From Candidatus Lloydbacteria bacterium RIFCSPHIGHO2_02_FULL_50_18 (lineage in GTDB: Bacteria; Patescibacteriota; Minisyncoccia; Phycocordibacterales; UBA6899): DNA of 64,000 bases. The DNA lies in the NCBI GenBank assembly GCA_001821395.1, contig MHLM01000012.1:1-64000 (forward strand), written 5' to 3'. The notes beneath the pieces are model-generated. The model ran no database searches. It had not been told where the DNA came from and was given only the letters and a program-made list of their open reading frames with translations. Made by a program: the position numbers and the translations under genes. Numbering within the stretch: position 1 is the first letter of the stretch; every line of letters begins with the position of its first letter. Positions 32,311 to 63,340 of the stretch are shown piece by piece.

Positions 32311-32496
32311 ACTCAGCAGTCATTTTTGATCAACTTGAGCTTTTGGTGTGCTGCTCACAAAGAATATACGTTTTTTATGAAATACAGGTAAATGCAAAGC
32401 ATTTTCTCCTTAAAAAATTAAACGTCGGCAATAAAATATTTTTTCTGAAATTCGTCAATAATTCCTAAAATATGTGATTTTAAGCATTTTTTGAAC

Positions 32497-32544: not shown

Positions 32545-32706
32545 TGGGTATAAAGGACATTATAATGACTTTTATTATGTCCTTTAGGAATTTGATTGAG
32601 GGCGGCGTTGTGCCGTTTCACGGAAAGCAAAGAATTAATGTTACTACGTAACAAATTAAGCAACAGTACAATATATCTGACTTGAATAACGTAAATTGGG
32701 TTTCAC

Positions 32707-33126: not shown

Positions 33127-33403
33127 TCTTTTCACGTGAAACATAATGAACGAGAAGGATGACGGACCCAGGTCATAAGGTCGTTTTGTCTATTATGGGT
33201 GTTTCACGTGAAATCCTGCCTCAAATCTGTCTTGATCATCGCTTTGTTTTTGCGGTTTTATGTTTAGTGAAAGATAACTACAAAGTATAAATGAGCATAG
33301 CGCTGCTTGGGGATTACTCTTGAATTTTTTATGAGTATAATATGGAAAAGACAATCTTTATGAACAGGTTGCGTAGTTTAAAATTCTATGATATAATATT
33401 TCC

Positions 33404-33688
33404 ATGACTGATTCAAAACGCACCGAGTTGACACTGCATGCGATCGAGATCATTCACGGATCTCGTCTTTCAAGCGACGAGAAGATGATGCTTGAGGGGA
33501 GAATCCCGTTTATCTCTGATTCCATGCTTGAAATGTTTGTGCAGGTTTGCGATGAAGATCCGTTCGGCGTTGATGCAATCGTTAAAAATCTAAAGAAGAA
33601 ACTTGATGCAGGAGGGAATTTAAAACGATTGCATGAGATCGTAAAACAGGAGCGCAGGGAAATCGAAGATTCATTAGTCCTAGGATAA
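33404..33688 (+). CDS. hypothetical small protein
   Basis: 94-aa ORF, helical and charged, no motif. Confidence 0.45.
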   Translation: MTDSKRTELTLHAIEIIHGSRLSSDEKMMLEGRIPFISDSMLEMFVQVCDEDPFGVDAIVKNLKKKLDAGGNLKRLHEIVKQERREIEDSLVLG

Positions 33689-33698
33689 TAAATTTTAT

Positions 33699-34946: not shown

Positions 34947-34983
34947 CGAAGTATATCGGGGCGTGGTGTAATGGCTAACATGT
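34947..34983 (+). pseudogene. tRNA-Pro 5'-half pseudo-copy (degenerate duplicate upstream of the intact gene)
   Basis: CGGGGCGTGGTGTAATGGCTAACATGTCTGGTTTT is near-identical to the 5' half of tRNA-Pro at 35047. The anticodon loop is disrupted (TTTTCAGGATAGAGA) and the T-arm is missing. Confidence 0.5.
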
Positions 34984-35046
34984 CTGGTTTTCAGGATAGA
35001 GACCAGATGACAAGAGACAGCGTGACGTAGTGAGGAAGAAGTATAT

Positions 35047-35119
35047 CGGGGCGTGGTGTAACGGCTAACATGTCTGGTTTGGGACCAGATGACTCCGGGT
35101 TCGAATCCCGGCGCCCCGA
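35047..35119 (+). tRNA. tRNA-Pro (anticodon TGG)
   Basis: Acceptor CGGGGCG/CGCCCCG, anticodon stem TCTGG/CCAGA with loop TTTGGGA, T-arm CCGGG-TTCGAAT-CCCGG. Confidence 0.9.
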
Positions 35120-35163
35120 CTAAATAAAGAAAAGACCTTCAAGGAGGTCTTTTCTTTATTTAG
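35120..35163 (+). terminator. long AT-rich hairpin immediately 3' of tRNA-Pro
   Basis: CTAAATAAAGAAAAGACC-loop-GGTCTTTTCTTTATTTAG perfect 18-bp inverted repeat. Confidence 0.45.
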
Positions 35164-35190: not shown

Positions 35191-35302
35191 GAGGGATTCG
35201 AAGCCCTTCTCCCATATTTATGAAGGATTCTTATCCTGAGTAAATGGGAAAGGGGTACTGACGCAGTAGGCGTCGAAATTCCCGGCGCCCCGACTAAATA
35301 AA
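35191..35302 (+). repeat. tRNA-3'-associated structured element (Pro copy) followed by an exact duplicate of the tRNA-Pro 3' end plus 11 nt (att-like)
   Basis: GAGGGATTCGAAGCCCTTCTCCCATATTTATGAAGGATTCTTATCCTGAGTAAATGGGAAAGGGGTACTGACGCAGTAGGCG, then TCGAAATTCCCGGCGCCCCGACTAAATAAA. Confidence 0.55.
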
Positions 35303-35476: not shown

Positions 35477-36058
35477 GTGAAGAATCCCGAATACGAAGAA
35501 GGTGGACATGATGAAAAAAAAGACCTATTCCTTTTTGAGTTGGACGGGGATCTTTACGCTGTACCCGTTGAACTCGTCGATCGAGTAATGAAAATACCTC
35601 CGATCACTCCGATCCCCAATGCGCCGGCGGCAATTGTTGGTATCTTCCACTTGCGCGGAAAGGTCGTTTTGACCCTCGACCTCTCAAGTCGTATGGGTAT
35701 TTCCAGAATGAAGCCCTTAAGTCAAAACTTTCTTTTTGTCGTGCGGTATAAAAATGATCAGTTCGCCATTTTGATCGATACACCTAAGGTCATTGTACAC
35801 ATCCCAGCGAGCGAAATTCATCGTCCCGACTCCATTCTTACGGCCCGATTATCACCGCAATATGTCCAGGGAACCTTCATGTTTCAGGAGGTAACAAAAG
35901 TGAAAGTCCCTAATCATTCGATCTTCATCGAGCATATTGGTGGGGTTGACCGGAGGCCTGAAGAAATTCCACCATCACTTCGACCGGTACTCCTCCTTGA
36001 CCTTGAGCGAGTCCTTGACCAGGAGGATCTTCAGCACATGTTTATTTCACAGGAGTAA
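35477..36058 (+). CDS. cheW: chemotaxis coupling protein CheW
   Basis: CheW-like domain LFLFELDGDLYAVPVELVDRVMKIPPITPIPNAPAAIVGIFHLRGKVVLTLDL. Confidence 0.8.
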   Translation: MKNPEYEEGGHDEKKDLFLFELDGDLYAVPVELVDRVMKIPPITPIPNAPAAIVGIFHLRGKVVLTLDLSSRMGISRMKPLSQNFLFVVRYKNDQFAILIDTPKVIVHIPASEIHRPDSILTARLSPQYVQGTFMFQEVTKVKVPNHSIFIEHIGGVDRRPEEIPPSLRPVLLLDLERVLDQEDLQHMFISQE

Positions 36059-36079
36059 AGTCTATGGTACAATTTTAGT

Positions 36080-36442
36080 ATGGCAAAGGATATAAAAATA
36101 CTTCTTGTTGATGACTCAGCTTTTATGCGTAAGGTATTGCGTGACATCTTTGAAAGTGCCGGATATACGAATTTCATAGAGGCGGGAAATGGAACAGAAG
36201 CGATCCAAAAATTCAGAACAGAGAAGCCCGATTTTATCTTTCTTGATATCATCATGCCTGACGTGAACGGTATGGATGTACTTCGTGAGATCGGGAGCGA
36301 AGCGAAGGTCATCGTCGTATCGGCGGTTGGACAAAAGGATGTGATCGAGCAGGCAAAAACACTTGGTGCACTCGATTACATCGTAAAGCCTTTTGATCGT
36401 GATCAGGTGCTCGAAAAGGCCCAGCGGCATTTCGGTCAGTAA
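36080..36442 (+). CDS. cheY: chemotaxis response regulator CheY
   Basis: 120-aa single REC domain KILLVDDSAFMRKVL...DFIFLDIIMPDVNGMDVL...KP with the phospho-acceptor Asp. Confidence 0.85.
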   Translation: MAKDIKILLVDDSAFMRKVLRDIFESAGYTNFIEAGNGTEAIQKFRTEKPDFIFLDIIMPDVNGMDVLREIGSEAKVIVVSAVGQKDVIEQAKTLGALDYIVKPFDRDQVLEKAQRHFGQ

Positions 36443-36456
36443 GTAGCCCGACACGC

Positions 36457-37566
36457 TTGGTCAAATGTTTCATGAATAGTCAACCAACCGAAAAGATCCG
36501 TGTACTTATTGCAGATGATTCTTTTTTTATACGCACCTATCTTCAGGAGGTATTGAAAGCAAGTGAATCGATCGAAGTCGTTGGGCTTGCTTCATCGGGA
36601 ATCGAAGTAGTTGAGTTGGCACGTAAATTAAAACCCCATGTGATCACGATGGATTATCACATGCCGGGAAAAAATGGAATTGAAGCAACCGCAGAGATTA
36701 TGCGTGATGATCACCCGCTTCCGGCAATCATCATGCTTTCTGCTTTCGAGGGGGATGATGGCGAACATGTTCGAAAGACCCTTTTGTCCACCGGTGCCCA
36801 TGTGATCGAAAAACCGTCGGGAGAAGTGTCTCTTGATATAGAAAAGATTGCACGCACTATCGTACAACGGATCGAGGAGGTCGGGTGGACCGAAGTACGC
36901 ATGCGACACTCCTTTGCCCGCATGAAACACACTAGGGAACGAAGCCTAAATGGGCAGGATCGCACACTGCCATTTTCGGGGGTTGTCGTGATCGGTGCGT
37001 CTACCGGTGGGCCATCCTTGGTTGAAGGTTTGATCAAGTCGTTTGATCAGTATCACGGAATTTCGATCGTGATAGTTCAGCACATGTCTGCATATTTTAC
37101 TTCGCTGTTTGCTGAGCGGCTCGGACACGTTACCTCATTCCGTGTTTATGAAGCAAAGAGCGGAGACGTTCTTCTTCCGAACGATGCCCTCGTTGTCCCC
37201 GGTGGTTCTTTTTTGTTACCTACTTCGCTACCGGGTTCCCCGATGTGCAGCTTTGATATTATCGAAAGTGAAACTCATGCACCGGAGGCGCAGATCGACA
37301 ATTCGATGCGCGCGATAGCCGCTTGTTACCAGGGACCAATCGCCGGCGTATTACTTTCCGGAATGGGAAATGACGGAGCCGTCGGACTGCACGCACTGCG
37401 ATTGCGTGGAGGACTTTGTCTTGCGCAGGATCCGGAAACAGCACCGGTGCGTTCTATGCCGGCGCATGCGATTGATAGCGGTGAGGCAGTCGGAGTGCGG
37501 ATAGAGGATATCCCCGAACGTATCATGAGTCATTTTCGTCGACCATCACCGTCACGGCTTGCGTGA
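36457..37566 (+). CDS. cheB: chemotaxis protein-glutamate methylesterase CheB (REC + CheB_methylest)
   Basis: N-terminal REC (IRVLIADDSFFIR). C-terminal VVVIGASTGGPSLVEGLI, HMSAYFT and a GMGNDGAVG-like catalytic region. Confidence 0.85.
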   Translation: MVKCFMNSQPTEKIRVLIADDSFFIRTYLQEVLKASESIEVVGLASSGIEVVELARKLKPHVITMDYHMPGKNGIEATAEIMRDDHPLPAIIMLSAFEGDDGEHVRKTLLSTGAHVIEKPSGEVSLDIEKIARTIVQRIEEVGWTEVRMRHSFARMKHTRERSLNGQDRTLPFSGVVVIGASTGGPSLVEGLIKSFDQYHGISIVIVQHMSAYFTSLFAERLGHVTSFRVYEAKSGDVLLPNDALVVPGGSFLLPTSLPGSPMCSFDIIESETHAPEAQIDNSMRAIAACYQGPIAGVLLSGMGNDGAVGLHALRLRGGLCLAQDPETAPVRSMPAHAIDSGEAVGVRIEDIPERIMSHFRRPSPSRLA

Positions 37567-39250
37567 TATAATCAACCATATGCCGTTGAACATGAATAAG
37601 TATAAGGATCTCTTCTGCGCGGAAGCAGAGGAGCAGCTTGCAATACTCTCTCGTTTATTGCTTGTGCTTGAGAAATCAACAAACCACATGGAATACCATG
37701 AGGAGTTAATGCGCAGCGCACACACCATCAAGGGTGCCGCTGCGACAATGGGGTATGCTTCAATGGCAGAACTTGCTCATGCGGTTGAAGATATTTTTCA
37801 TGCAGCCGAGCGGGGTGCCCTTGTGGTTGATACACGGATCATTACACTATTGCTCTCAGCGATCGACCTCATGACGCATTCACTCGCCTCGATCAAGAGT
37901 AGTGACGTTGAACTTCCCAGTAAGGAAGTTGTTGATAAATTGAAAAAAATTCTTGAAGAAAATGCCGGTGTACAGACCGTTGTTCCGCAAGAAAAAACCG
38001 GTACTGATGTTCAGCAATTGCATATCGTCACTCCGGATACCATCAAGGTTAGTGTCGAAAAACTCGATACATTAATGGGGCTATTTGAGGAAATGTTGAT
38101 GCTCAGACTGAAGGCAAATTCAATGATCGAGCCTGCTGTGGAATTTGTTCGGACGACGACTGACCCTGTATTGAAGCAGCAATTATTCTTCATTGCCGAG
38201 CTCGAGGCATTGTTTGCAGAACTTGCGCGGCTCATGACTGAGCATCAAGACGCTCTTCTTGCTATTCGCCTCGTTCCCCTTGAACAGATCTTCGGCCAGT
38301 TCCCTCGTATGGTGAGGGATCTGTCGGTGCGAGAAGAAAAAGCGATCGAATTTTTTGTTGAAGGTGGAGATATCGCCTTAGACCGTACCGTGATCGAGGG
38401 CCTTGGCGGTGCACTAGCGCATCTTCTTCGCAATGCGGTCGACCACGGGATCGTTTCACGTGGAACAATATCTCTTTCGGCGGTAAGGGAAAAGGGACGC
38501 GTACGGATCTTTGTGGAGGATTCGGGCGCCGGGATCGATTATGGGCGGGTCAAAGAGGTGGCAACGGCTCAAGGGGTAGGCACGAGTGAAGAGATCGCAC
38601 TTATGGGAAACGAACAGCTCGCAGAATTATTGTTTCATCAAAATATGTCGACCAACAAAGTGGTGACGGATATTTCGGGAAGAGGAGTTGGTCTTGCTGC
38701 GGTGCGCGGGTTTGCTGAGGATGTCGGAGGACGCGTTGAAGTCATTTCTCCCATTCCGGAAATAGGGAAGGGGACCCGCTTTGTTCTTGATCTTCCGATC
38801 TCTCTTGCAACAGTGCGCGTGCTCGTCGTGCAAGCACGAGGGTACACATTTGCGATACCTTTCGATCATGTCATTAAAACACTTCACTTTGAAACGCGGG
38901 AGGTCGGTGACGCGGCGCATCAGGAAACACTTTTTCTCGACGGGACATTGTTGCCGCTGATGCATCTCGATAAAATTCTCAAACTATCATACGGTTCCGC
39001 TCCATCTCCGGAACATTCTCGAACCGCGGTGTTGATCCGAACGGGAGAGAAAACATTTCTTCTCGAAGTAGATGCGTGCACGGGTGAACAAGACCTATTG
39101 ATCAAATCGCTTCCTCCGGTTCTCCGTAATAATAAGGGATTTTCAGGCTCAGCGCTTCTCCCGGACGGACGAACAATATTATTACTCGATGGCCATGGTT
39201 TACTCATACAAGCAATAGACGATATACTGAACACCCAATCATTATCTTAA
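37559..39250 (+). CDS. cheA: chemotaxis histidine kinase CheA
   Basis: HPt motif HTIKGAAATMGY, HATPase_c HLLRNAVDHGI ... GRGVGLAAV, and a C-terminal CheW-like domain. Confidence 0.85.
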   Translation: MRDIINHMPLNMNKYKDLFCAEAEEQLAILSRLLLVLEKSTNHMEYHEELMRSAHTIKGAAATMGYASMAELAHAVEDIFHAAERGALVVDTRIITLLLSAIDLMTHSLASIKSSDVELPSKEVVDKLKKILEENAGVQTVVPQEKTGTDVQQLHIVTPDTIKVSVEKLDTLMGLFEEMLMLRLKANSMIEPAVEFVRTTTDPVLKQQLFFIAELEALFAELARLMTEHQDALLAIRLVPLEQIFGQFPRMVRDLSVREEKAIEFFVEGGDIALDRTVIEGLGGALAHLLRNAVDHGIVSRGTISLSAVREKGRVRIFVEDSGAGIDYGRVKEVATAQGVGTSEEIALMGNEQLAELLFHQNMSTNKVVTDISGRGVGLAAVRGFAEDVGGRVEVISPIPEIGKGTRFVLDLPISLATVRVLVVQARGYTFAIPFDHVIKTLHFETREVGDAAHQETLFLDGTLLPLMHLDKILKLSYGSAPSPEHSRTAVLIRTGEKTFLLEVDACTGEQDLLIKSLPPVLRNNKGFSGSALLPDGRTILLLDGHGLLIQAIDDILNTQSLS

Positions 39251-39255
39251 GTATT

Positions 39256-39921
39256 ATGCCATCACTATTTCAACTCACAGAAAATGATAATGACCAGTTA
39301 CGAGAACTTGTAAATATCGGAGTTTCGCATGCCGGAGACACGTTGTCTTTGATGATGGGGAAACATATCACGGTAAGTATTCCGGGGATATCCGTACAAA
39401 GCGCATCCACTACGCTCTGTTTGCCGCAAGGTGATGAGGATCTCACCGTCTCAGTGTTGCTCCGCGTATACGGGTTAATTAATGGATATGTCTTTTTGTT
39501 TTTTCCGCGCACTGCCGCTCTCCGCTTGCTGCAAGTACTTTCAGGAAAGAGTATCAGCGATGTGCGCGCACTCGATCGATTCGACCGGTCAATATTTCAA
39601 GAACTAGGAAACGTGATCACCGGCGGTACGTTGAACGGACTATCAAAATTTCTCCACATCGAGATGCTTCACTCCGTCCCCAACGTTGTCGTGGATATGA
39701 GTGGTGCAATATTCAATTCCTTATCAGCATCGATGGTGAAGCAGCACGAGGAATTTCTTTCTCTTGATGTTTCGATCTGCATCGATTCTCCATCGAGCTC
39801 TGCTGTGTGTGTTGATAGCGAGGCCTCCGCTGCGCGCATGTATCTTTTTATGGGACCGGATGCCGTGGAGAGGATCCTTGCGATCACCAATGCGATGATC
39901 GGCAAAAAAAATGACCTATGA
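39256..39921 (+). CDS. cheC: CheC-family CheY-P phosphatase
   Basis: Two CheC-type motifs (NIGVSHAGDTLSLMMG and ELGNVITGGTLNGLS). Confidence 0.65.
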   Translation: MPSLFQLTENDNDQLRELVNIGVSHAGDTLSLMMGKHITVSIPGISVQSASTTLCLPQGDEDLTVSVLLRVYGLINGYVFLFFPRTAALRLLQVLSGKSISDVRALDRFDRSIFQELGNVITGGTLNGLSKFLHIEMLHSVPNVVVDMSGAIFNSLSASMVKQHEEFLSLDVSICIDSPSSSAVCVDSEASAARMYLFMGPDAVERILAITNAMIGKKNDL

Positions 39922-40406
39922 GCAATACTATCGAAATACGGATTGCTGAGCTTTTTGTTGGTGATCAGTCGAATGTCATCATCACAAAGGGGGTCGGCTC
40001 ATGTATCGTGATCGTCCTCTATGATCGCCTCGTGCGCATCGGAGGGATGGCACATGCGATACTTCCAGAAGCGAGCATCGAGCATGCAGAGGTTGGTGTG
40101 CATGTGGATTTAGGAAAACGATTTGTGAAGTATGCGGATCTTGCAGTGGACACATTGATCGCTGATATGGAGTCATTGGGTGGAACACGGCAGCATCTTG
40201 TCGCAAAATTGATCGGAGGTGCGCATATGTTTGCGTTGCTTGAAGGTGATACGTTTGGTATCGGGTGGGAAAATACAGAAAGTGCACGCGCGCGATTGGT
40301 CCACCATGGAATACCGATTGAAACGGAGGTGGTAGGCGGAACGGTCGGTCGGAATGTACGTCTTGATTGTGCAACAGGCATCGTCGAGATTATCACGAAG
40401 GTTTAA
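39918..40406 (+). CDS. cheD: chemoreceptor glutamine deamidase CheD
   Basis: GVGSCIVIVLYDRLVRIGGMAHAILP matches the CheD catalytic Cys/His region. 4-nt overlap with cheC. Confidence 0.8.
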   Translation: MSNTIEIRIAELFVGDQSNVIITKGVGSCIVIVLYDRLVRIGGMAHAILPEASIEHAEVGVHVDLGKRFVKYADLAVDTLIADMESLGGTRQHLVAKLIGGAHMFALLEGDTFGIGWENTESARARLVHHGIPIETEVVGGTVGRNVRLDCATGIVEIITKV

Positions 40407-40454: not shown

Positions 40455-40994
40455 TTGCTATACACTGGGCAAATGCTCATCCGTCGTAACCCACTAACCC
40501 TTTTGTCCTTTGTGCTGTTCGTTATTGCTCTCTACTCTGCGGGCATGCTTTCTTCTTCAGCTCGTGTTACACATGAAACAACGATCCCCGAAAACCTTTT
40601 TTCTGTGAAACAGGGTGTTACTCAGGATGGAACGGTGTCTATTTCCGAGGTTTCACGGGTTCCCGCCGTCCCGATCTTTCTAAAGAGTGCGAATCATCCA
40701 CGAACACTGCGAGCATTTGTCGGACCAAGTCAGGGTGACAAAGCATCACTTTTTATAGAGTCGGTACTACCGCGTGGCTATTTTGTTATTTCAGGAGGTT
40801 ATACTGTTTCACAAGATTTCCCGACACTTTTATGGAATAACGCAGTGACACTTCAGTTTTACGGAACAAAAGAGAACAACGAGCAGCTCTACCGTATTCG
40901 TCTTAACGTGCATGCACTTACGGTTGATGCTTTGCCCGTTGATCCGACAGCAACCAGTAGCGATCCGACGGGGTATCGTGTGACGCCGGATTAA
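40455..40994 (+). CDS. hypothetical membrane-anchored protein
   Basis: 179 aa with N-terminal TM LTLLSFVLFVIALYSAGML. Confidence 0.5.
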   Translation: MLYTGQMLIRRNPLTLLSFVLFVIALYSAGMLSSSARVTHETTIPENLFSVKQGVTQDGTVSISEVSRVPAVPIFLKSANHPRTLRAFVGPSQGDKASLFIESVLPRGYFVISGGYTVSQDFPTLLWNNAVTLQFYGTKENNEQLYRIRLNVHALTVDALPVDPTATSSDPTGYRVTPD

Positions 40995-56041: not shown

Positions 56042-57793
56042 ATGCTCGTCCAAGAAAGCAAATTAAAGAAATTTATTCTCGATTCCGGGCTCACATCACG
56101 GTCGGAGATCCTTGCCGCCGAGAAAGATGCCGAGAAGGAAGGTGGGAGTATCGGAGATGTATTAGTGAAGCAGGGCAAAATATCCTCTGATGACCTGCGC
56201 CGTGTCCAGGCATATATTCTCGGCATTCCATTTGTGGATCTGCGCGGGCAGAAGATCGATTTTGCCATCCTTTCATTGATCCCCGAGCCGATTGCACGCA
56301 AGCACAATATCGTCGCATTTCGAAAAACGGATTCCGGTCTTGAGGTCGCAATGCTTGACGTTGATGATCTTGAGGCGATCGACTTTGTGCGTAAAAAGGT
56401 GGGGTTACGTATTCTCCCGCGATTGACGGATCAAGAGTCGGTAAAGGGATCATTGCTGCAGTATCAAAAATCTCTGAAGGCGGAGTTTGGTGACCTCATT
56501 CAGCAAGAAGCACAGTCGATACAAATGCTTGCCGAAGATGAAGATAATCCTGCGTCAGAAAAAGATCTGAAGAAACTCGCGGAAGACCTTCCTGTGGTGC
56601 GTATTGTTGATACGCTCTTGAATCATGCCATCATTCAGTCAGCGTCCGACATTCATATTGAACCGATGGAAAATCAATTGCTGGTGCGCTATCGCATCGA
56701 CGGTATTCTTCACGATGCCATGGTGCTTCCACGAAATTCTGCACCGGGTATTACCGCGCGTATCAAGGTGCTTTCGAATTTAAAATTGGATGAAAAGCGG
56801 TTGCCTCAGGACGGACGGTTCAAGATCCAATTGAACAATGAGAAGGTCTCTTTTCGTGTCTCGACGCTTCCGACACATCATGGAGAGAAGACGGTTATGC
56901 GTCTTTTGCGCGAATCATCAGGAGGTTTCTCGCTTGAATCATTGGGTTTTCACGGGCAGGGACTTGAGGCGCTCCATTCGGCGATGAATCAGCACGTCGG
57001 AATGCTGCTCGTGACCGGGCCGACCGGTTCCGGTAAGACAACGACGCTCTATACATTGCTCGATATCCTGAATACTCCCGATGTGAACATCTCCACCATT
57101 GAGGATCCCGTTGAGTATCAGATGCCGCGTATCAATCAGACACAAGTGAAGCCGGAGATCGGCCTCACCTTTGCCATGGGGTTACGCGCACTCCTTCGCC
57201 AGGACCCCGATATCATCATGGTGGGAGAGATCCGCGACGGTGAGACAGCCTCACTTGGAATCAATGCCGCGCTTACGGGACATTTAGTGCTGTCGACCCT
57301 GCATACGAATTCCGCCGCCGGAACATTACCGCGTTTCATTGATATGGGCGCAGAGCCGTTCCTCATCATCTCAACGGTGAACGTCATCATCGGACAACGG
57401 CTCGTACGTAAGTTGTGCGCCACGAAAGAGAAATATAATCTCTCAAAGGCGGAGCTTGATGCATTAGGGAAAAAGGCAAACCTCGATATCGTCCTCGCTT
57501 CACTCAAGGAGGAGGGGATAGTAGCAAAAGATATAGCGTGGGCGGATGTCCCGTTTTATAAAGCGAAACCTTCCCCTGAATGTGATGAGGGCTATAAGGG
57601 GCGTCTGAGTATTCATGAAGTGCTACACATGTCGTCGGGGATCCGTGAACTTGCCGTCGCAAGTGCATCTGCAGAAAAGATCGAGATACAGGCGCGCAAA
57701 GAAGGGATGCTGACGATGCTTGAAGACGGGATATTCAAGGCAGCCCAAGGACTCACGTCCATCGAAGAAGTCTATAGAGTAGTCAGCGAGTGA
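56042..57793 (+). CDS. pilB: type IV pilus assembly ATPase PilB (GspE family)
   Basis: N-terminal T2SSE_N-like domain. Walker A LVTGPTGSGKTTTLY, Asp box, Walker B, His box. C-terminal tetracysteine-like CxxC region. Confidence 0.9.
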   Translation: MLVQESKLKKFILDSGLTSRSEILAAEKDAEKEGGSIGDVLVKQGKISSDDLRRVQAYILGIPFVDLRGQKIDFAILSLIPEPIARKHNIVAFRKTDSGLEVAMLDVDDLEAIDFVRKKVGLRILPRLTDQESVKGSLLQYQKSLKAEFGDLIQQEAQSIQMLAEDEDNPASEKDLKKLAEDLPVVRIVDTLLNHAIIQSASDIHIEPMENQLLVRYRIDGILHDAMVLPRNSAPGITARIKVLSNLKLDEKRLPQDGRFKIQLNNEKVSFRVSTLPTHHGEKTVMRLLRESSGGFSLESLGFHGQGLEALHSAMNQHVGMLLVTGPTGSGKTTTLYTLLDILNTPDVNISTIEDPVEYQMPRINQTQVKPEIGLTFAMGLRALLRQDPDIIMVGEIRDGETASLGINAALTGHLVLSTLHTNSAAGTLPRFIDMGAEPFLIISTVNVIIGQRLVRKLCATKEKYNLSKAELDALGKKANLDIVLASLKEEGIVAKDIAWADVPFYKAKPSPECDEGYKGRLSIHEVLHMSSGIRELAVASASAEKIEIQARKEGMLTMLEDGIFKAAQGLTSIEEVYRVVSE

Positions 57794-58069
57794 CGGGCAT
57801 TCTCGCGGATTATTTCGTTGAAAGCTTGCGAGGCTCATTCACCGTACTCAGAAGTACGCCTCATATCGCTTCGCGCTTTCGCCTCGTACTCCATCGAGAA
57901 TACCAATCACTCTATTCGGCTAAATCTGGCGTCTATATTTGTTAGCGGCCCACTGCCCGTCCTTCCTAGCTTTCGTTTCGCATCAAGATCATTCACTCAC
58001 TCGGGAACAGCGAATGAATGATTTTGCGTTTTATTTGTGAAAAGAGTAGAACTACAAAGGAACAATTGA

Positions 58070-58375
58070 ATGAAATTTCACATGAAACTTATTCGTGACA
58101 AGATACCCGGCATCGCTCATGCAAAGGGTGAACAGCTGCAGTGCCATAAGGCGGATCCCGCAGAATATCGCTATCATCTTCGAGAAAAGATTCTTGAAGA
58201 GGTTCATGAATTTCGTGAGTCTGGAGAGGCAGAGGAATTAGCTGATATTCTGGAGGTTGTACGGGCGATAGCAAATGAGCGCGGTTTATCGATGCGCAAT
58301 CTTTATCTCCTTCGTGATAAAAAGCGCCGAGCACGGGGAGGATTTGACGGACGGATCATTTGGCAAAATGAGTAG
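58070..58375 (+). CDS. MazG-like/PRA-PH-superfamily nucleotide pyrophosphohydrolase
   Basis: MKLIRDKIP...EELADILEVVRAIANERGLS...RGGFDGRI. 101 aa. Confidence 0.55.
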   Translation: MKFHMKLIRDKIPGIAHAKGEQLQCHKADPAEYRYHLREKILEEVHEFRESGEAEELADILEVVRAIANERGLSMRNLYLLRDKKRRARGGFDGRIIWQNE

Positions 58376-58527
58376 ATCGAGCAAGTCGGCTTGTAGGATC
58401 GGACATCGTGTCCGGTCTTTTGTTATTGCCCATGAGAATGCCATGAGTTTCGGTCACGACCATGCGCGAGTAAGGAGTGTGGAAAAGCGTGTCACGCAGA
58501 CTATTTTCCTATATAATAAAATGAACT

Positions 58528-59745
58528 ATGCCCAAGTACACCTATAAAGCACAATTGCTCGCAACTGGTAGTGAGATGGAAGGAACCGCAGAAGCAGCGG
58601 ATAAATTTGAACTTGCAAAGAATATAAAGATGGAAGGAAAACTTCTTCTTAGCGCAACCGAGCTCTCCGATTCACCCTGGAACATGGACAAGATCAACGC
58701 CTTGCTGACGAAGGTTGACCTGCGTGAAAAGATCTTGTTTGCGCGCAATATGGCGACGATGATCCAGGCAGGACTTCCTCTTTCACGAGCATTGCAGATC
58801 TTTGTGAAACAAACGAAGAATCCGAAGTTTCGTACGGTATTGAGCTCCATCATCGAAGACATTAATAAAGGCACTTCTTTTTCCGATGCCATGGGAAAAT
58901 TCGAAGATATTTTTCCGGCCGTCTTCATTTCAATGGTACGTGCAGGTGAGGAATCCGGCGGACTCGTTGAGGCGCTCAATGTTGTTGGCGGACAGATGGA
59001 AAAGACCTATACGATAAAGAAAAAAGTAAAAGGCGCAATGATGTATCCTGGGATCGTCCTCATCGTCATGCTTGCGGTGGGGGTGCTGATGATGATCTAC
59101 GTTGTTCCCGGACTTGCGGCAGGGTTCAAGGAGGCCGGCGCTGAATTGCCCCCCCTGACAAAGGCCATCGTGGCTATAAGTGATTTTCTGCAGAATGACC
59201 TCCTCCTCGCATTGCTCGGTGTCGCCGGTGTCACTGCAGCATTCTGGTGGTACAAGCGCACGACGCTCGGTTCTCGTTCCATTGACTGGCTAGTAATCCG
59301 CCTCCCTGTTTTTGGTAAATTGATCAAGGAGTTCAACTCCGCACTTGCTACTCGTACGCTGTCATCACTCATATCTGCGGGGGTGGATATCGTCCATGCG
59401 ATCGAGATCACCCAAGACGTGCTCGGTAATATCTTTTATAAAGAAACGCTAGAACAGGCGAAGATTAATGTGCAGAAAGGAGTCCCTCTTTCCCAGGTGT
59501 TCATCGAAAATAATGAGATCTACCCGGTCATGGTGGGAGACATGATGGAGGTTGGGGAAGAGACCGGACAGCTCTCGGGAATGCTGCTCAAGATCGCGAC
59601 GTTCTATGAAGAAGAGGTTAGTCAGGCGACCGAGGACATGTCAAAGCTCATCGAACCGCTGCTCATGGCCATCATCGCCGTCTTTGTCGGCATTTTCGCG
59701 GTCGCAATGATCACCCCCATGTACTCGATGATGCAAAATATCTAA
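58528..59745 (+). CDS. pilC: type IV pilus inner-membrane platform protein PilC (GspF family)
   Basis: Two T2SSF repeats and 3 TM helices. 405 aa. Confidence 0.9.
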   Translation: MPKYTYKAQLLATGSEMEGTAEAADKFELAKNIKMEGKLLLSATELSDSPWNMDKINALLTKVDLREKILFARNMATMIQAGLPLSRALQIFVKQTKNPKFRTVLSSIIEDINKGTSFSDAMGKFEDIFPAVFISMVRAGEESGGLVEALNVVGGQMEKTYTIKKKVKGAMMYPGIVLIVMLAVGVLMMIYVVPGLAAGFKEAGAELPPLTKAIVAISDFLQNDLLLALLGVAGVTAAFWWYKRTTLGSRSIDWLVIRLPVFGKLIKEFNSALATRTLSSLISAGVDIVHAIEITQDVLGNIFYKETLEQAKINVQKGVPLSQVFIENNEIYPVMVGDMMEVGEETGQLSGMLLKIATFYEEEVSQATEDMSKLIEPLLMAIIAVFVGIFAVAMITPMYSMMQNI

Positions 59746-59885
59746 GCATTTATTTGTATTATCGTTTCATGAGGTGTGACGACGGAGGATGCATGCGGAG
59801 GGGGCGGACATGCTGCGGTGCTTCGGTCTCGCGGTGATCGTTGGATTTTCGGCAAACGAAAATATTTTAGGCGACATTTCGAATT

Positions 59886-60359
59886 ATGCTCAATTCACAA
59901 CACACAACTCGCGGAGTGACACTCGTTGAAATATTGCTGGTGATCGCAATCACGATACTGCTTGCGTCTGTCGTGCTTTCTTCGTTTGGACAATATCGGT
60001 TGCGGCAGAGTCTCGCAGGTTCGATCGAAAGCGTGCTCGCGGCAATAAGCGCGGCACATCTGAATACCATTTCTTCAAAAAATGACAGTCCTTATGGGGT
60101 CAATCTCAAGCCTGACGAGGCGATCTATTTTGCCGGTGATTCTTATCCGGGAGATACCGATCCCGCTAATATTCATTACGTGCTACCGGCGACGATCGAG
60201 ATCGCAAATGTCAGTCTTAATGGTGGTGATACAAAAATATATTTTAAGAAGCTTATGGGGGCTACCGACAATTATGGAACATTTGATATTCGCGCAAAAA
60301 CAAGCACCGGCGTAGGTACGACAGTGACGATCTATCAGACCGGGGCGACATCCATCTGA
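59886..60359 (+). CDS. type IV pilin-like protein (prepilin N-terminal motif)
   Basis: TTRG|VTLVEILLVIAITILLASVVL is a class III signal with Glu+5. Confidence 0.75.
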   Translation: MLNSQHTTRGVTLVEILLVIAITILLASVVLSSFGQYRLRQSLAGSIESVLAAISAAHLNTISSKNDSPYGVNLKPDEAIYFAGDSYPGDTDPANIHYVLPATIEIANVSLNGGDTKIYFKKLMGATDNYGTFDIRAKTSTGVGTTVTIYQTGATSI

Positions 60360-60373
60360 TTGTTCATATAAAT

Positions 60374-60943
60374 ATGATGAAACTCAAACACACAAAGACA
60401 GCAGTAAGAGCAGCACTGAATGGAGGCAGCTTCTTCCTCACTTGCCGTCCGTCGCGATGCCGTCGAGGTCCGACATCGGGATTTTCCATCGTTGAGATCA
60501 TTCTTGGTATCGGAATGCTGACAACGGCACTCGTTGCTGTTTCAGCGTACTATATAAGGCTGCTCACCGTCAGTGAGTTGACTACCGAGCACATTCAGTC
60601 AGGGTTCTTGCTTGAGGAGGGGGTTGAGGTTATGAAGCTGTTGCGTGACGAGAGTTGGTCGACAACAATCGCCCCACTTTCCACTACGACGACGTACTAT
60701 TTGTCCTGGAATGGAACGAAGTGGACAGCGACAACAACAAAGCAGGTCATAGAGAATATTTTCACACGCTCATTGGAGATCAGTGACGTGAATCGTGACA
60801 ATGTAACCTACAATATTGATCCTACGGGTACATATGATCCTGGAACTAAGAAGGTCACCGTGAGTATTGGATGGCAGAGAAGAGGCGGGAACGTCGCTAC
60901 CGACACGGCGCAAACTTACATCATGAACCTTTTTAATAATTAG
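60374..60943 (+). CDS. type IV pilin-like protein (long leader)
   Basis: PTSG|FSIVEIILGIGMLTTALVAV. Confidence 0.7.
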   Translation: MMKLKHTKTAVRAALNGGSFFLTCRPSRCRRGPTSGFSIVEIILGIGMLTTALVAVSAYYIRLLTVSELTTEHIQSGFLLEEGVEVMKLLRDESWSTTIAPLSTTTTYYLSWNGTKWTATTTKQVIENIFTRSLEISDVNRDNVTYNIDPTGTYDPGTKKVTVSIGWQRRGGNVATDTAQTYIMNLFNN

Positions 60944-60944
60944 T

Positions 60945-61478
60945 ATGATCTTTTTACGAAACAATTCGGACAGGACACAGAGCAGGGGCTTCACTCTTGT
61001 TGAAATGGTCCTTTATATTGGACTGTTCGTATTGCTTTCAACGATGTCGATGACTGCGCTCTTTCAGACGGTTAGGGCTTTCAACGAACTACGGGTATCC
61101 CGCGATATCGATGATTCTGCAGTAAAGATCATGGAGCGACTGACGCGCGATATTAAGAGCTCGACATCTGTCGATCTTGCAAACAGCACCTTTGGGTCAT
61201 CTCCGGGAAGGTTGACGCTATTAACGGTCAATGCCTCAGGAACACCCCTCACCGTCGAATACTATGTCTCAGGTTCCATATTGAGCATAAGAGAGAACGG
61301 CGTCGACAGAGGAGCGCTTATGTCTGCTCGTACGAACATCGATGCATTGGTATTTTATTACATCAGCTCGGGCCCAACATTTGGAATAAAAACAGAATTG
61401 CACATTTCATCGACGCGCGGAAAGGCCGGCGAGGTGGATGATTTCTACGATACCAGTGTCCTACGGGGATCGTATTAA
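60945..61478 (+). CDS. type IV pilin-like protein
   Basis: QSRG|FTLVEMVLYIGLFVLLST. Confidence 0.75.
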   Translation: MIFLRNNSDRTQSRGFTLVEMVLYIGLFVLLSTMSMTALFQTVRAFNELRVSRDIDDSAVKIMERLTRDIKSSTSVDLANSTFGSSPGRLTLLTVNASGTPLTVEYYVSGSILSIRENGVDRGALMSARTNIDALVFYYISSGPTFGIKTELHISSTRGKAGEVDDFYDTSVLRGSY

Positions 61479-61483
61479 CGCTT

Positions 61484-63340
61484 ATGAAGATATTTTTTAT
61501 GCAAATTCGCTCACGATCCGCACATATGTTTTCTCATGCAAGTCAGACGAGGGGTGCCGCGCTCATTATCTTGGTCTTCTTTTTTATCTCGATATCTCTC
61601 GCGATCATTCAAACCGCTACCATCGGTGCTCTTGTCGAACTTCGGACCTATCGCACGATTGCGAGCTCTAAGGCCGCGTACGCCGCCGCCGAGGCGGGCG
61701 TTGAAGATATTTTTTACCGCACGATAAATAGTAAGCCCGTCCCAGTAAGCGAGTCACTCACATTGGACGGGGCAACGGCCAGCGTGGGAGTGGCGCCTAT
61801 TTCGGCGTCCCAGAGTGATGTGTATGTCGTCGGCACGGCTGGTAACGGCGAAGTACGCAAGCTGTATCTGTCGATATCGAAGAACAGAACGGCTTCGTTT
61901 TCCTACGGCGCACAGGTCGGAGAGGGCGGGATTATCATGGATAACAACGTGGATATCGATGGTATGGGTCTTGCAAATGGTGATATTTACTCGAACGGTC
62001 AGGTTGTCGGCGGTACGAATGTCCACGTGATGGGTAACGTTATTTCATCATCCAGTTTGTTCGCTGACCAGATCGCAAGTTCCACGTTGTGTGAGAGTGA
62101 TGAGGCTGTCGGCAAAACAAATCCGCGCATTGATTATGCGCAAAGCTTTATGCTCTCTACTACGACGGCGAGCATTGACCTTGCCAGTGTCTCGCTCTAC
62201 ATCAAGCGGAATAATGGTCCGACCGGCGCGAATATTCGCATTACCGCAGATGATAGCGGTAAGCCGTCAACGGTCGCTCTCGCTACTCAACCGCTTCCAT
62301 ATTCAAGTGTCGCCACTACTTACGGATGGGTGACGGTCAGCTTTGCGACACCCGCCACGCTTGACCCCGGGACATTGTACTGGATCGTTCTTGACGCGAC
62401 GCAGAATGCGTCAAAGTATTGGTATTGGTGCAGGAGTAACGCCGACAATTATGCAACCGGTACCCCGGCCTACAAGCTCGACAGTTCTACGTCCGGTGCG
62501 TGGACGGCGGTATCGGGTGATATGGCGTTTGGAACGACATTTGGCGGCGGTATCAGTAAGATCGATGATGTTGACGTCCTTGGTATCGCTAAGGCCGATA
62601 CGATAACAGATTCGCATATTCACAGTGATGCTTACTACAAGACCATCTCCGATTCGACCGTCGACGGGGCGTCCTATGCCGGAACACCGACTCCTCCATA
62701 TGTCCCACTTCCGATCTCGAGTTCGACGATCACACAGTGGGAGGGCGATGCCGCTAGTGGTGGTATCATAAGCGGTGATTGTGGCGTTGGCGGCATCGCG
62801 GCATGCAACACGTTTCCCCTCTCTCTCGGGCCGAAGCGGATCAACGGCAACCTCGTCGTTGATAATGGAGCAGTGCTGACCGTCACTGGGACGATCTATG
62901 TTACCGGGAATGTCGTCATTGATAATGGCGGATCGATCCGTTGCGCATTCGGCTTCATGGGTAATAGCTGTATCATCATCGCAGATGGCCATATCAGTGT
63001 ATCCAACAATGCGACCTTCGGCGGATCCGGAGTGTCCGGAAGTTTTATCATGTTACTGTCAACAAAGGAGGGCTGTCTGGGGACAAGCGGCACCGGCTGC
63101 GCTACAAATTTTAGCGCAATAGGAATAAAGAATAATGTTACCGGTGCGCTCTTCTATACCAGTAGATCGCTTATCGATATTTCGAATCAGGCTACCGTGA
63201 CTGCGGTTGTCGGGTATATGCTTATGCTGCAAAACGGATCCGGAATCATGTATGATCCGCTGGTTGCGAACATCTCATTTGCGCCGGCCACGAGTGGAGT
63301 AACCGGCGCCTGGAATGCAGTTCGCTGGAATGAATATTGA
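61484..63340 (+). CDS. large pilus-associated protein with degenerate pilin-like N-terminus (candidate tip/adhesin component)
   Basis: N-terminal TRG|AALIILVFFFISISLAI is hydrophobic and pilin-like but lacks Glu+5. The 600-aa Gly/Thr/Ser-rich beta-type body follows three pilin genes. Confidence 0.5.
   Translation: MKIFFMQIRSRSAHMFSHASQTRGAALIILVFFFISISLAIIQTATIGALVELRTYRTIASSKAAYAAAEAGVEDIFYRTINSKPVPVSESLTLDGATASVGVAPISASQSDVYVVGTAGNGEVRKLYLSISKNRTASFSYGAQVGEGGIIMDNNVDIDGMGLANGDIYSNGQVVGGTNVHVMGNVISSSSLFADQIASSTLCESDEAVGKTNPRIDYAQSFMLSTTTASIDLASVSLYIKRNNGPTGANIRITADDSGKPSTVALATQPLPYSSVATTYGWVTVSFATPATLDPGTLYWIVLDATQNASKYWYWCRSNADNYATGTPAYKLDSSTSGAWTAVSGDMAFGTTFGGGISKIDDVDVLGIAKADTITDSHIHSDAYYKTISDSTVDGASYAGTPTPPYVPLPISSSTITQWEGDAASGGIISGDCGVGGIAACNTFPLSLGPKRINGNLVVDNGAVLTVTGTIYVTGNVVIDNGGSIRCAFGFMGNSCIIIADGHISVSNNATFGGSGVSGSFIMLLSTKEGCLGTSGTGCATNFSAIGIKNNVTGALFYTSRSLIDISNQATVTAVVGYMLMLQNGSGIMYDPLVANISFAPATSGVTGAWNAVRWNEY

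What the first reader, a model, noticed from the sequence alone, without database searches (positions are those of the whole stretch)
35477..40406. Compact chemosensory operon (cheW-cheY-cheB-cheA-cheC-cheD) lacking cheR and receptor genes, next to a recombination hotspot
Six che genes are tightly packed (4-nt overlaps, 20-nt gaps). CheB and CheD (receptor-modifying enzymes) are present, but no methyltransferase CheR or MCP is in the window. CheA seems to lack a P2 domain (563 aa). With abundant type IV pilus genes and no flagellar genes in the window, this may be a pilus-controlling (Chp/Frz-like) pathway. The position right after the tRNA-Pro insertion hotspot raises the possibility of acquisition by horizontal transfer.
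Basis: partly seen in the sequence, partly recalled or inferred. Interest (0 to 1): 0.5.

Follow-up and report, generated by a model that had tools for sequence, protein, structure and literature searches.

The report
Pilus-linked chemosensory operon in CPR bacterium
An ultrasmall groundwater bacterium from a group usually said to lack chemotaxis carries an intact six-gene chemical-sensing operon that, in its relatives, sits directly beside type IV pilus genes, so it most likely steers pili rather than flagella.

Summary
At 35477-40406 lie cheW, cheY, cheB, cheA, cheC and cheD, tightly packed on the + strand. All catalytic motifs are intact. The 64-kb window has no MCP, no CheR, no flagellar gene and no other receiver domain. 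CheA lacks P2.

The window comes from Candidatus Lloydbacteria bacterium RIFCSPHIGHO2_01_FULL_49_22 (CPR/Patescibacteria).

The horizontal-transfer idea is not supported. The neighbourhood, including tRNA-Pro directly upstream of cheW, is syntenic in relatives whose CheA is only 51-54% identical. GC content equals that of the window. The genes are under strong purifying selection.

In 6 of 11 other Patescibacteria loci the same cheW-Y-B-A-C-D core runs straight into (REC)-pilB-pilC-pilins-pilM. In the more distant clade it is preceded by MCP genes. The pilus cluster inside this window (56-63 kb) is a paralogue of that che-linked module, not its orthologue.

In composition and ancestry the system is F1-like, with CheC and CheD and nearest relatives in Firmicutes, Thermotogae and Archaea. 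It is not Chp- or Frz-like.

I found no paper describing this system. I rate it a new variant of a known kind, of moderate interest. Whether MCP and CheR exist elsewhere in the genome is unresolved.

The parts
35047..35120 (+). tRNA-Pro(TGG), the conserved upstream neighbour of cheW. It is a context marker, not part of the pathway.
   Evidence: ARAGORN and Rfam. The same tRNA lies directly upstream of cheW in L003 and L006.
35477..36058 (+). cheW, the coupling protein (193 aa, GTG start).
   Evidence: Pfam PF01584, E 2e-23. Aligns with solved CheW structures. The public gene call has the same length.
36080..36442 (+). cheY, a single-domain response regulator (120 aa).
   Evidence: PF00072. Best PDB match is T. 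maritima CheY 1TMY, E 5e-28. The DD, D, S and K phospho-acceptor residues are conserved. It is 91% identical to the L171 orthologue.
36472..37566 (+). cheB, receiver domain plus methylesterase/deamidase (364 aa by the public gene call; the ORF opens at TTG 36457).
   Evidence: PF00072 plus PF01339. The GASTGGP, QHM and GMGNDG catalytic motifs are present.
37580..39250 (+). cheA, histidine kinase with P1-P3-P4-P5 and no P2 (556 aa; the ORF opens at TTG 37559).
   Evidence: Hpt, HATPase_c and CheW-like domains. 100% identical to OGZ06235.1. The alignment with E. coli and T. maritima CheA shows that P2 is missing. The P1-P3 spacer has a median of 49 aa in the clade, against 181-195 aa in P2-bearing relatives.
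39256..39921 (+). cheC, CheY-P phosphatase (221 aa).
   Evidence: PF04509/PF13690. Matches T. maritima CheC 1XKR, E 2e-22. Both D/S-x3-E-x2-N sites are present, as DQLRELVN and SIFQELGN.
39918..40406 (+). cheD, receptor glutamine deamidase and CheC partner (162 aa). It overlaps cheC by 4 nt.
   Evidence: PF03975. Matches T. maritima CheD 2F9Z, E 3e-18. The GSC and MAH motifs (catalytic Cys and His) are conserved.
40473..40994 (+). Conserved membrane-anchored protein of unknown function (173 aa), 66 nt downstream of cheD. It may be co-transcribed; whether it belongs to the pathway is unproven.
   Evidence: An orthologue occupies the same position in L003, L006, L008, L171 and L172. It has no Pfam or NCBIfam hit. 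The AF2 model is unusable, with pLDDT 40.6.
56042..63340 (+). Type IV pilus cluster: pilB 56042-57793, pilC 58528-59745, prepilin-like genes 59886-61478 and a 618-aa pilus-associated protein 61484-63340. It is a candidate output machine, but it is a paralogue of the che-linked pilus module seen in relatives.
   Evidence: Pfam T2SSE/MshEN and T2SSF. NCBIfam type IV-A PilB. Prepilin-type N-termini such as RG|VTLVE and RG|FTLVE. PilB is only 41-43% identical, and PilC only 25-31% identical, to the che-linked copies.

Best explanation
This is an intact, vertically inherited chemosensory operon of a lineage specific to Patescibacteria (CPR). It descends from the F1-type (CheC/CheD-containing) pathway of Firmicutes, Thermotogae and Archaea.

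Shown here:
- A CheA consisting of P1-P3-P4-P5 without P2.
- CheW.
- A T. maritima-like CheY.
- A two-site CheC phosphatase.
- A CheD deamidase.
- A CheB esterase/deamidase.
- All catalytic residues conserved, and all six genes under purifying selection.

Inferred working:
1. Transmembrane MCPs encoded elsewhere in the genome control CheA through CheW and the P5 domain. In relatives these MCPs have dCache or CHASE3 sensor domains and many Gln-Gln modification sites.
2. P1~P passes phosphate to CheY and CheB without a P2 docking domain.
3. CheC, regulated by CheD, dephosphorylates CheY-P.
4. CheD and CheB modify the receptors.
5. CheY-P acts on type IV pilus machinery, probably at or near the PilB ATPase, and so biases pilus extension. 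That would bias twitching or host contact in a flagellum-less episymbiont.

The pilus output rests on gene neighbourhood in relatives. In this genome the dedicated REC-pilB-pilC module is not next to the operon.
For: - **Domains and motifs:**
- **Source organism:** Ca. Lloydbacteria RIFCSPHIGHO2_01_FULL_49_22.
- **Conserved synteny:** the block UPF0102-hyp94-hyp~350-tRNA-Pro-cheWYBACD-hyp173-nth is the same in L003, L006, L171 and L172, whose CheA is 51-73% identical.
- **Link to pilus genes:** cheD is followed by REC-pilB-pilC-pilins(-pilM) in L005, L006, L172, L089 and L173, and by pilB in L088. MCP genes precede cheW in L088, L089, L091 and L173.
- **Specificity of that link:** PilB adjacency occurs in 6 of 11 other CPR loci. 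Among the nearest non-CPR CheA loci it occurs in 3 of 78 for PilB-like genes and 0 of 78 for PilC.
- **Phylogeny:** CPR CheAs form a clade in 55 of 60 NJ bootstraps, and all of them lack P2.
- **F1 affinity:** the nearest outgroups are Firmicutes, Thermotogae and Archaea. CheC is present in 50 of 78 of those loci and CheD in 56 of 78. The top NCBIfam hits are CheA_Halo, CheY_Halo, CheC_Thtogales and CheD_Thtga.
- **Purifying selection:** pN is 0.04-0.28 against a saturated pS of 0.72-0.82, and CheY is 91% identical to its L171 orthologue.
- **Receptor substrates:** CPR MCPs carry up to 9 heptad-spaced QQ/EQ consensus sites.
- **Precedent for pilus motility in CPR:** type IV pili drive twitching and host association in cultured Saccharibacteria (PMC9894109, PMC11623550).
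Against: - No MCP, CheR or second response regulator is in the 64-kb window. A search seeded with a CPR MCP found none traceable to this contig.
- The pilus cluster in the window is a paralogue of the che-linked one.
- No orthologue of the pilB-adjacent REC was found on this organism's contigs.
- No CheR was seen in any of 12 CPR loci, so methylation-based adaptation is unproven.
- No PilT was seen in any locus.
- The output is inferred from gene neighbourhood only. There is no experimental or expression evidence.
- The CPR origin of most 'group 2' CheAs is known only for the loci inspected.
Confidence: 0.6

Rival explanations
1. The pathway has an alternative cellular function in this lineage. 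The Lloydbacteria subclade lost or moved the dedicated REC-pilB-pilC module, so CheY-P may now control something other than pili, such as adhesion or surface proteins, DNA uptake, secretion or cell division.
For: In the window, L171, L008 and L003, cheD-hyp173-nth is followed by unrelated housekeeping genes, not by REC-pilB. REC2 orthologues were found on other che contigs but not on those of this organism. The window's PilB and PilC are paralogues of the che-linked copies.
Against: CheY is the most conserved gene of the neighbourhood, at 91% identity, and it is orthologous to the CheY of the pilus-linked clusters at 68-76% identity. A type IV pilus system is still present 15.6 kb away. No alternative output domain, such as a GGDEF, HTH or STAS domain, is encoded in or next to the operon.
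Confidence: 0.25
2. This is ordinary flagellar chemotaxis, with cheR, MCPs and flagellar genes lying outside the window.
For: The composition (CheC, CheD, T. maritima-like CheY) is that of F1 flagellar or archaellar systems. Only about 64 kb of the genome was visible.
Against: No flagellar gene appears in the window or in any of the other 11 CPR loci, while pil genes abut the operon in 6 of the 11. The literature describes CPR bacteria as lacking motility and chemotaxis machinery (PMC11974145, PMC11809585).
Confidence: 0.03
3. The operon is a recently acquired genomic island inserted at the tRNA-Pro hotspot.
For: tRNA-Pro lies 357 nt upstream. A 5'-half pseudo-copy (34948-35011) and an exact 23-nt copy of its 3' end (35280-35302) flank the tRNA. 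The operon's codon usage ranks 35th of 39 control blocks for divergence.
Against: The same tRNA-Pro-cheW junction and the same flanking genes occur in relatives with 51-73% CheA identity. GC is 0.483 against 0.484, and GC3 is within 1 SD of the other genes. No tRNA-end repeat lies downstream of the operon. CPR CheAs are monophyletic. The nearby integrase (27007-27948) is also syntenic in relatives, which fits a Xer-type chromosomal recombinase.
Confidence: 0.03
4. The operon is a decaying remnant that no longer signals, having been orphaned from its receptors, CheR and pilus module.
For: MCP, CheR and REC2 were not found in the window.
Against: All six ORFs are intact and their catalytic residues are conserved. 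pN is far below pS in all six genes. The same six-gene arrangement is kept in at least four genomes of the subclade.
Confidence: 0.07

Closest known systems
F1-class chemotaxis system of Bacillus subtilis and Thermotoga maritima (CheA-CheW-CheY-CheB-CheR-CheC-CheD)
   Same: It has the same auxiliary pair, CheC phosphatase and CheD deamidase. The best structural-sequence matches are T. maritima CheY, CheC and CheD. The nearest non-CPR CheAs come from Firmicutes and Thermotogae.
   Different: CheA has no P2 domain. No CheR is linked. There are no flagellar genes. In relatives the cluster is fused to type IV pilus genes instead. All proteins score below the NCBIfam equivalog cut-offs.
Archaeal chemotaxis system (F1-type che genes acquired from bacteria, driving the archaellum, a type IV pilus-like machine, through CheF). 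This description rests on my own knowledge.
   Same: An F1-type che gene set is coupled to a type IV filament machine rather than to a flagellum. The top NCBIfam hits are the haloarchaeal CheA and CheY models. Archaeal CheAs are among the nearest outgroups.
   Different: The machine here is a bacterial type IVa-like pilus (PilB, PilC, PilM), not an archaellum. No CheF-like protein was detected by Pfam in the window. Archaeal CheA keeps P2 and CheR is present. The coupling step here is unknown; in relatives it may be a pilB-adjacent receiver protein.
Pil-Chp (Tfp class) system of Pseudomonas aeruginosa
   Same: It is a chemosensory pathway genetically linked to, and controlling, type IV pili, with two CheY-like proteins. 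PilG and PilH there correspond to CheY plus the pilB-adjacent REC in relatives here.
   Different: ChpA has many Hpt domains and a C-terminal receiver; this CheA has one Hpt and no receiver. The Tfp class has PilK (CheR) and lacks CheC and CheD; here the reverse is true. The ancestry is unrelated.
Frz system of Myxococcus xanthus and the cyanobacterial Pix/Tax phototaxis systems. These descriptions rest on my own knowledge.
   Same: These are chemosensory-type pathways that steer type IV pilus motility. In cyanobacteria, CheY-like regulators act at the PilB/PilC level, which is the mechanism proposed here.
   Different: FrzE is a CheA-CheY fusion with a cytoplasmic receptor, FrzCD, and a CheR, FrzF. 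The cyanobacterial systems use PATAN-REC regulators and photoreceptor MCPs. None of these features is present here.

Membership tests
Chemosensory (Che) signalling pathway, generic | CheA kinase with Hpt (P1), dimerisation (P3), HATPase (P4) and CheW-like (P5) domains | tested here: met
   Pfam finds Hpt, HATPase_c and CheW-like domains. P3-P5 align with E. coli and T. maritima CheA structures, E 1e-56.
Chemosensory (Che) signalling pathway, generic | CheW adaptor and a CheY receiver with phospho-acceptor residues | tested here: met
Chemosensory (Che) signalling pathway, generic | At least one MCP (PF00015) receptor in the genome | tested here: inconclusive
   None in the 64-kb window. MCPs are adjacent to cheW in the distant CPR loci L088, L089, L091 and L173. 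The rest of this genome could not be searched (one search found no traceable hit).
F1 class (Wuichet-Zhulin scheme; the 19 classes are described in PMC9239204 and bioRxiv 10.1101/2022.05.07.491037) | CheC and CheD auxiliary proteins in the cluster | tested here: met
F1 class (Wuichet-Zhulin scheme) | CheA, CheB and CheR assigned to F1 by the class-specific HMMs or trees | not testable with these tools
   MiST class HMMs are not available. As a proxy, the nearest non-CPR CheAs are from Firmicutes, Thermotogae and Archaea at 28-38% identity, but the CPR sequences form their own clade.
F1 class (Wuichet-Zhulin scheme) | CheR methyltransferase partner of CheB | tested here: inconclusive
   Absent from the window and from all other CPR loci (profile best E 0.47). 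The same query finds cheR in 28 of 78 non-CPR genome loci. Genome-wide status is unknown.
F1 class (Wuichet-Zhulin scheme) | CheA with a P2 (CheY-binding) domain, as in the P2-bearing relatives sampled here | tested here: not met
   The P1-P3 spacer is 43 aa here and has a median of 49 aa in the clade, against 181-195 aa in relatives.
Tfp class (Pil-Chp) | ChpA-type CheA with multiple Hpt domains and a C-terminal receiver | tested here: not met
   One Hpt domain and no REC in CheA.
Tfp class (Pil-Chp) | Gene set pilG-pilH-pilI-pilJ-pilK-chpA-chpB without CheC or CheD | tested here: not met
   CheC and CheD are present. There is no CheR/PilK and no MCP/PilJ in the operon.
Tfp class (Pil-Chp) | Functional and genetic link to type IV pilus genes | tested here: inconclusive
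   Direct adjacency in 6 of 11 related CPR loci. In the window, only a paralogous pilus cluster lies 15.6 kb away.
Frz-type (ACF) pathway | CheA-CheY fusion (FrzE), cytoplasmic MCP (FrzCD) and dual-receiver FrzZ | tested here: not met
   CheA has no receiver domain. The window holds only two receiver domains, both accounted for by CheY and CheB.
Archaeal Che-archaellum coupling | CheF adaptor and archaellum (FlaI/FlaJ/FlaH) genes | tested here: not met
   Pfam found no such domains in the ORFs scanned. The ATPase is a bacterial type IV-A PilB (TIGR02538, 545 bits), with FlaI only a distant hit.

The most novel reading that the evidence does not exclude
Patescibacteria carry their own class of chemosensory pathway. 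It would be an F1-derived, P2-less system with no CheR at all, in which receptor state is set only by CheD/CheB deamidation of Gln-Gln sites and by the CheC-CheD feedback. CheY-P, helped in many lineages by a pilB-adjacent receiver protein, would dock directly on the PilB extension ATPase to steer pilus-based host seeking by ultrasmall episymbionts. This would be a bacterial parallel to the archaeal rewiring of F1 chemotaxis onto the archaellum.
Probability: 0.2. Interest if true: 0.75.

Novelty: new variant of a known kind. Interest (0 to 1): 0.55.

Why it matters
CPR/Patescibacteria are usually described as lacking chemotaxis and motility machinery (PMC11974145, PMC11809585). How these obligate episymbionts find hosts is an open question. 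Type IV pili are already known to drive twitching and host association in cultured Saccharibacteria (PMC9894109, PMC11623550).

A conserved, selected chemosensory operon that is physically fused to pilus genes in several Paceibacteria-type lineages gives a concrete and testable candidate for directed host or nutrient seeking.

For chemotaxis research it would be a second case, after Archaea, of an F1-type pathway re-wired from the flagellum to a type IV filament machine. It comes with a minimal CheA (no P2) and possibly no methyltransferase.

Tried and rejected
1. **Exact look-ups that failed.** The CheA look-up with the TTG start failed and succeeded with the 556-aa form. The last look-up, meant to extend the window past 64 kb, failed because the 618-aa ORF start did not match a gene call. 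The rest of the 182-kb contig could therefore not be read.

2. **MCP search.** A search seeded with a CPR MCP signalling domain returned Patescibacteria, WWE3 and Gracilibacteria MCPs. None had this organism's name or the 182,048-bp contig fingerprint, so the result is inconclusive.

3. **Collection scans.** Only two CPR loci came from the first and one from the second. They served as outgroups and controls only.

4. **The 'one pilus cluster split by a rearrangement' idea.** I first thought the window's pilB-pilC was the che-linked module displaced by a 14-kb insertion. I rejected this because PilB is 41-43% and PilC 25-31% identical to the che-linked copies, which are 73-78% identical among themselves.

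5. **The upstream conserved proteins as cryptic receptors.** hyp378 (33699-34835) and hyp94 (33404-33688) have no MCP tip and no Pfam or NCBIfam hit. hyp378 has one transmembrane segment and is low-complexity and Gly-rich. I treat both as syntenic neighbours only.

6. **Structure of hyp173.** The AF2 single-sequence model had pLDDT 40.6 and was unusable, so no fold search was run.

7. **dN/dS.** Synonymous sites are saturated, so only pN against pS is reported.

8. **Regulatory RNAs.** Rfam found no regulatory RNA around the operon, only the four tRNAs. Promoter and terminator scans were at or below the level of shuffled controls.

9. **Literature.** Searches on CPR/Patescibacteria/Parcubacteria/Lloydbacteria combined with chemotaxis, CheA or chemosensory terms found no description of this system. 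The Wuichet and Zhulin 2010 paper was not held.

Full report
**1. Observation**

Six + strand ORFs between 35477 and 40406 carry the Pfam domains of these proteins:
- CheW
- CheY
- CheB (receiver plus methylesterase)
- CheA (Hpt, HATPase_c, CheW-like)
- CheC/CheX
- CheD

Public gene calls on identical DNA give CheB 364 aa (start 36472) and CheA 556 aa (ATG 37580). They do not use the upstream TTG starts listed by the ORF finder. With those starts the junctions are +21, +29, +13 and +5 nt and a 4-nt cheC/cheD overlap.

The CheA protein is 100% identical to OGZ06235.1 of Candidatus Lloydbacteria bacterium RIFCSPHIGHO2_01_FULL_49_22, a member of the Parcubacteria group of the Patescibacteria, also called CPR. 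The rest of the window fits such a genome. It holds many unannotated ORFs, a VirB4/PrgI-type secretion cluster, an H+-pyrophosphatase and a type IV pilus cluster.

**2. The proteins look functional**

- **CheY.** It aligns best with T. maritima CheY (1TMY, E 5e-28) and keeps the DD, D, S and K residues.
- **CheB.** It keeps the GASTGGP (Ser), QHM (His) and GMGNDG (Asp) motifs and the receiver aspartate.
- **CheC.** It aligns with T. maritima CheC (1XKR) and has both D/S-x3-E-x2-N phosphatase sites.
- **CheD.** It aligns with T. maritima CheD (2F9Z) and has the GSC cysteine and MAH histidine.
- **CheA.** It has the phospho-histidine motif and the N, G1 and G2 boxes.

Against the orthologous operon of L171 (CheA 73% identical), non-synonymous differences are 0.04-0.28 per site. 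Synonymous sites are saturated at 0.72-0.82. CheY is 91% identical, higher than the housekeeping genes compared (the CCA-adding enzyme at 84%, Nth and PGM at 75%). The operon is under purifying selection and is not decaying.

**3. CheA lacks P2**

In the alignment with E. coli CheA (6s1k), residues 3-109 match P1 and residues 153-541 match E. coli 262-640, which are P3-P5. The 43 residues in between stand where E. coli has about 150 residues of linkers and P2.

In an alignment of 194 CheAs, the P1-P3 spacer has these median lengths:
- 49 aa in the close clade (70 sequences)
- 64 aa in a second Patescibacteria-type clade (29 sequences)
- 181-195 aa in P2-bearing relatives

**4. What is missing**

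- **MCP.** None was found by Pfam in about 50 ORFs. A tblastn of the near-invariant MCP hairpin tip gave only chance hits.
- **CheR.** A tblastn with E. coli CheR finds cheR in 59 non-CPR loci, 28 of them among the 78 genome loci. It finds none in the window or the other CPR loci. A profile built from 53 CheRs gives a best E of 0.47 there.
- **Receiver domains.** The window contains only two, those of CheY and CheB.
- **Flagellar genes.** None was seen.

Only about 64 kb of a 182-kb contig was visible, so absence from the genome is not established. A search seeded with a CPR MCP gave no hit traceable to this contig.

**5. Relatives**

CheA homologues fall into three layers:
- About 74 clusters at 50-75% identity with the same architecture.
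- About 30 at 35-40% identity, several of which are shown to be Patescibacteria.
- P2-bearing CheAs at about 35% identity or less.

A genome-collection scan shows that the nearest non-CPR CheAs, at 28-38% identity, belong to Firmicutes, Thermotogae, Chloroflexota and Archaea. CheC occurs in 50 of those 78 loci and CheD in 56 of 78. In a neighbour-joining tree the close clade is monophyletic in 60 of 60 bootstraps. The two Patescibacteria-type clades together are monophyletic in 55 of 60. NCBIfam's best models are CheA_Halo, CheY_Halo, CheC_Thtogales and CheD_Thtga, all below the equivalog cut-offs. The system is therefore a divergent, CPR-specific offshoot of the F1-type pathway.

**6. Gene neighbourhood**

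In the close clade the following block is conserved in L003, L006, L171 and L172:

CCA-adding enzyme, tRNA-Arg, tRNA-Gly, UPF0102, hyp94, hyp~350, tRNA-Pro(TGG), cheW-Y-B-A-C-D, hyp173, nth.

In L006 and L172, nth is followed at once by a 123-aa receiver protein, pilB, pilC and pilin genes. In L005, cheD is followed directly by REC-pilB-pilC-pilins-pilM.

In the distant clade the arrangements are:
- **L088:** pilins, MCP(dCache), che genes, pilB.
- **L089:** MCP, MCP, Cache/HAMP protein, cheW-Y-B-A-C-D, REC, pilB, pilC, pilins, pilM.
- **L173:** MCP(CHASE3), cheW, CheC-like protein, cheY-B-A-C-D, three REC genes, pilB, pilC, further genes, pilM.
- **L091:** an MCP upstream of cheW.

Pilus adjacency is thus seen in 6 of 11 other CPR loci. 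Among the nearest non-CPR loci it is seen in 3 of 78 for PilB-like genes and 0 of 78 for PilC.

The pilB-adjacent receiver protein is a separate orthologous family. It is 28-35% identical to CheY and has all phospho-acceptor residues. Its orthologues sit on the same contigs as CheA in at least four assemblies.

The CPR MCPs have a canonical hairpin tip and up to nine heptad-spaced matches to the methylation/deamidation consensus, mostly encoded as Gln-Gln. That gives CheD and CheB plausible substrates.

**7. A caveat specific to this window**

Those genes are a paralogous system. Window PilB (583 aa) is 41-43% identical to the che-linked PilBs, which are 73-78% identical among themselves. Window PilC (405 aa) is 25-31% identical to the che-linked PilCs, which are 348-362 aa long.

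In the Lloydbacteria subclade (window, L171, L008, L003) the REC-pilB-pilC module is not next to the operon. No REC2 orthologue could be traced to this organism. The pilus output is therefore well supported for the CPR clade as a whole, but only inferred for this genome.

**8. The horizontal-transfer hypothesis**

tRNA-Pro does have local scars: a 5'-half pseudo-copy at 34948-35011 and an exact 23-nt copy of its 3' end at 35280-35302. Four results argue against recent transfer of the operon:
- No such repeat lies downstream of the operon.
- The tRNA-Pro-cheW junction is conserved in relatives with about 52% CheA identity.
- The operon's GC is 0.483 against 0.484 for the window, and its GC3 of 0.473 is within 1 SD of the other genes (0.502 ± 0.058).
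- Its codon-usage divergence of 0.0207 lies inside the range of control blocks, whose maximum is 0.0244.

The operon is old and vertically inherited within this clade. Any transfer from an F1-bearing donor predates the split of the two CPR clades.

**9. Mechanism**

The kinase, adaptor, regulator, phosphatase, deamidase and esterase are shown to be present and conserved.

The following steps are inferred:
1. MCPs encoded elsewhere gate CheA through CheW and P5.
2. P1~P phosphorylates CheY and CheB without P2-assisted docking.
3. CheC, modulated by CheD as in B. subtilis and T. maritima, removes the phosphate. This modulation rests on my own knowledge of that system.
4. CheD and CheB deamidate or demethylate the receptors.
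5. CheY-P, with the pilB-adjacent receiver protein in many relatives, modulates the type IV pilus motor.

The last step has precedents. CheY-like regulators act on PilB in cyanobacteria, and CheY acts through CheF on the archaellum in Archaea; both statements rest on my own knowledge. Type IV pili are also the known motility and host-association organelle of cultured CPR bacteria (PMC9894109, PMC11623550).

**10. Comparison and novelty**

The system works like a pilus-directed chemosensory pathway, but it is not a member of the Tfp (Pil-Chp) or Frz families. It has no multi-Hpt or REC-fused CheA, it has CheC and CheD, and no CheR is linked.

It shares ancestry and auxiliary proteins with the F1 class. 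It fails the P2 feature, and the linked-CheR feature could not be settled. It forms its own clade. Formal class assignment needs the MiST HMMs. The 19-class scheme is described in PMC9239204 and in bioRxiv 10.1101/2022.05.07.491037.

Seven literature searches found no description of a che-pilus system in CPR bacteria. Recent papers state that CPR bacteria, or a particular CPR genus, lack chemotaxis proteins. The Saccharibacteria pilus paper does not mention chemotaxis.

I rate this a new variant of a known kind, with interest 0.55. The main open points are the genome-wide status of MCP and CheR, and the actual target of CheY-P.

Noticed in passing
window 34948-35011 and 35280-35302: tRNA-Pro (35047-35120) is flanked by two partial copies. 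Ninety nt upstream lies a pseudo-copy of its 5' half (43 nt at 98% identity, then 21 nt at 81%). Downstream, 174 nt from the original, lies an exact 23-nt copy of its 3' end plus the bases that follow it. These look like scars of past integration or excision, but they do not bracket the che operon.
   Followed up: partly
L006:17732-19138: A bAvd gene and a reverse transcriptase gene, resembling a diversity-generating retroelement, sit between the che-linked pilB and pilC of a relative. A 933-aa LVIVD-repeat protein lies nearby in the pilus cluster.
   Followed up: no
L088:5359-5955 and 6988-7572; L090:959-1537; L173:7955-8542: The che clusters of the more distant Patescibacteria clade encode extra proteins of about 195 aa with no Pfam hit. 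The three whose sequences I read (two in L088, one in L090) contain a CheC-type S-x3-E-x2-N motif (DRSAIKETLNILSNSY), so they are probably unannotated CheC/CheX-like phosphatases. The L173 protein is included by its size and position only.
   Followed up: partly
L088:3278-5350 (MCP): This Patescibacteria chemoreceptor has nine heptad-spaced matches to the methylation/deamidation consensus, mostly encoded as Gln-Gln. It has no HAMP domain and a short signalling domain. No CheR gene is nearby.
   Followed up: partly
window 3096-6057 (and 129-11763): A VirB4/TraG-like ATPase (3096-4895) and a PrgI-like protein (5563-6057) lie on the minus strand among large ORFs without Pfam hits. This may be a type IV secretion or conjugation-like cluster.
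   Followed up: no
window 31000-34000: A low-GC patch (0.40-0.42, against 0.48 for the window) contains tRNA-Arg, tRNA-Gly and a UPF0102 gene with GC 0.364. The gene order is nevertheless conserved in relatives, so it is not an obvious island.
   Followed up: partly
window 33404-34835 and 40473-40994: Three proteins of unknown function (94, 378 and 173 aa) keep their positions around the che operon throughout the close clade. The 94-aa protein is 82% identical between the window and L171. The 173-aa protein has an N-terminal membrane anchor.
   Followed up: partly
window 56042-57793: The window's PilB has an N-terminal MshEN domain and a weak, below-cut-off match to the MshE-type c-di-GMP-binding motif (residues 13-55).
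   Followed up: no
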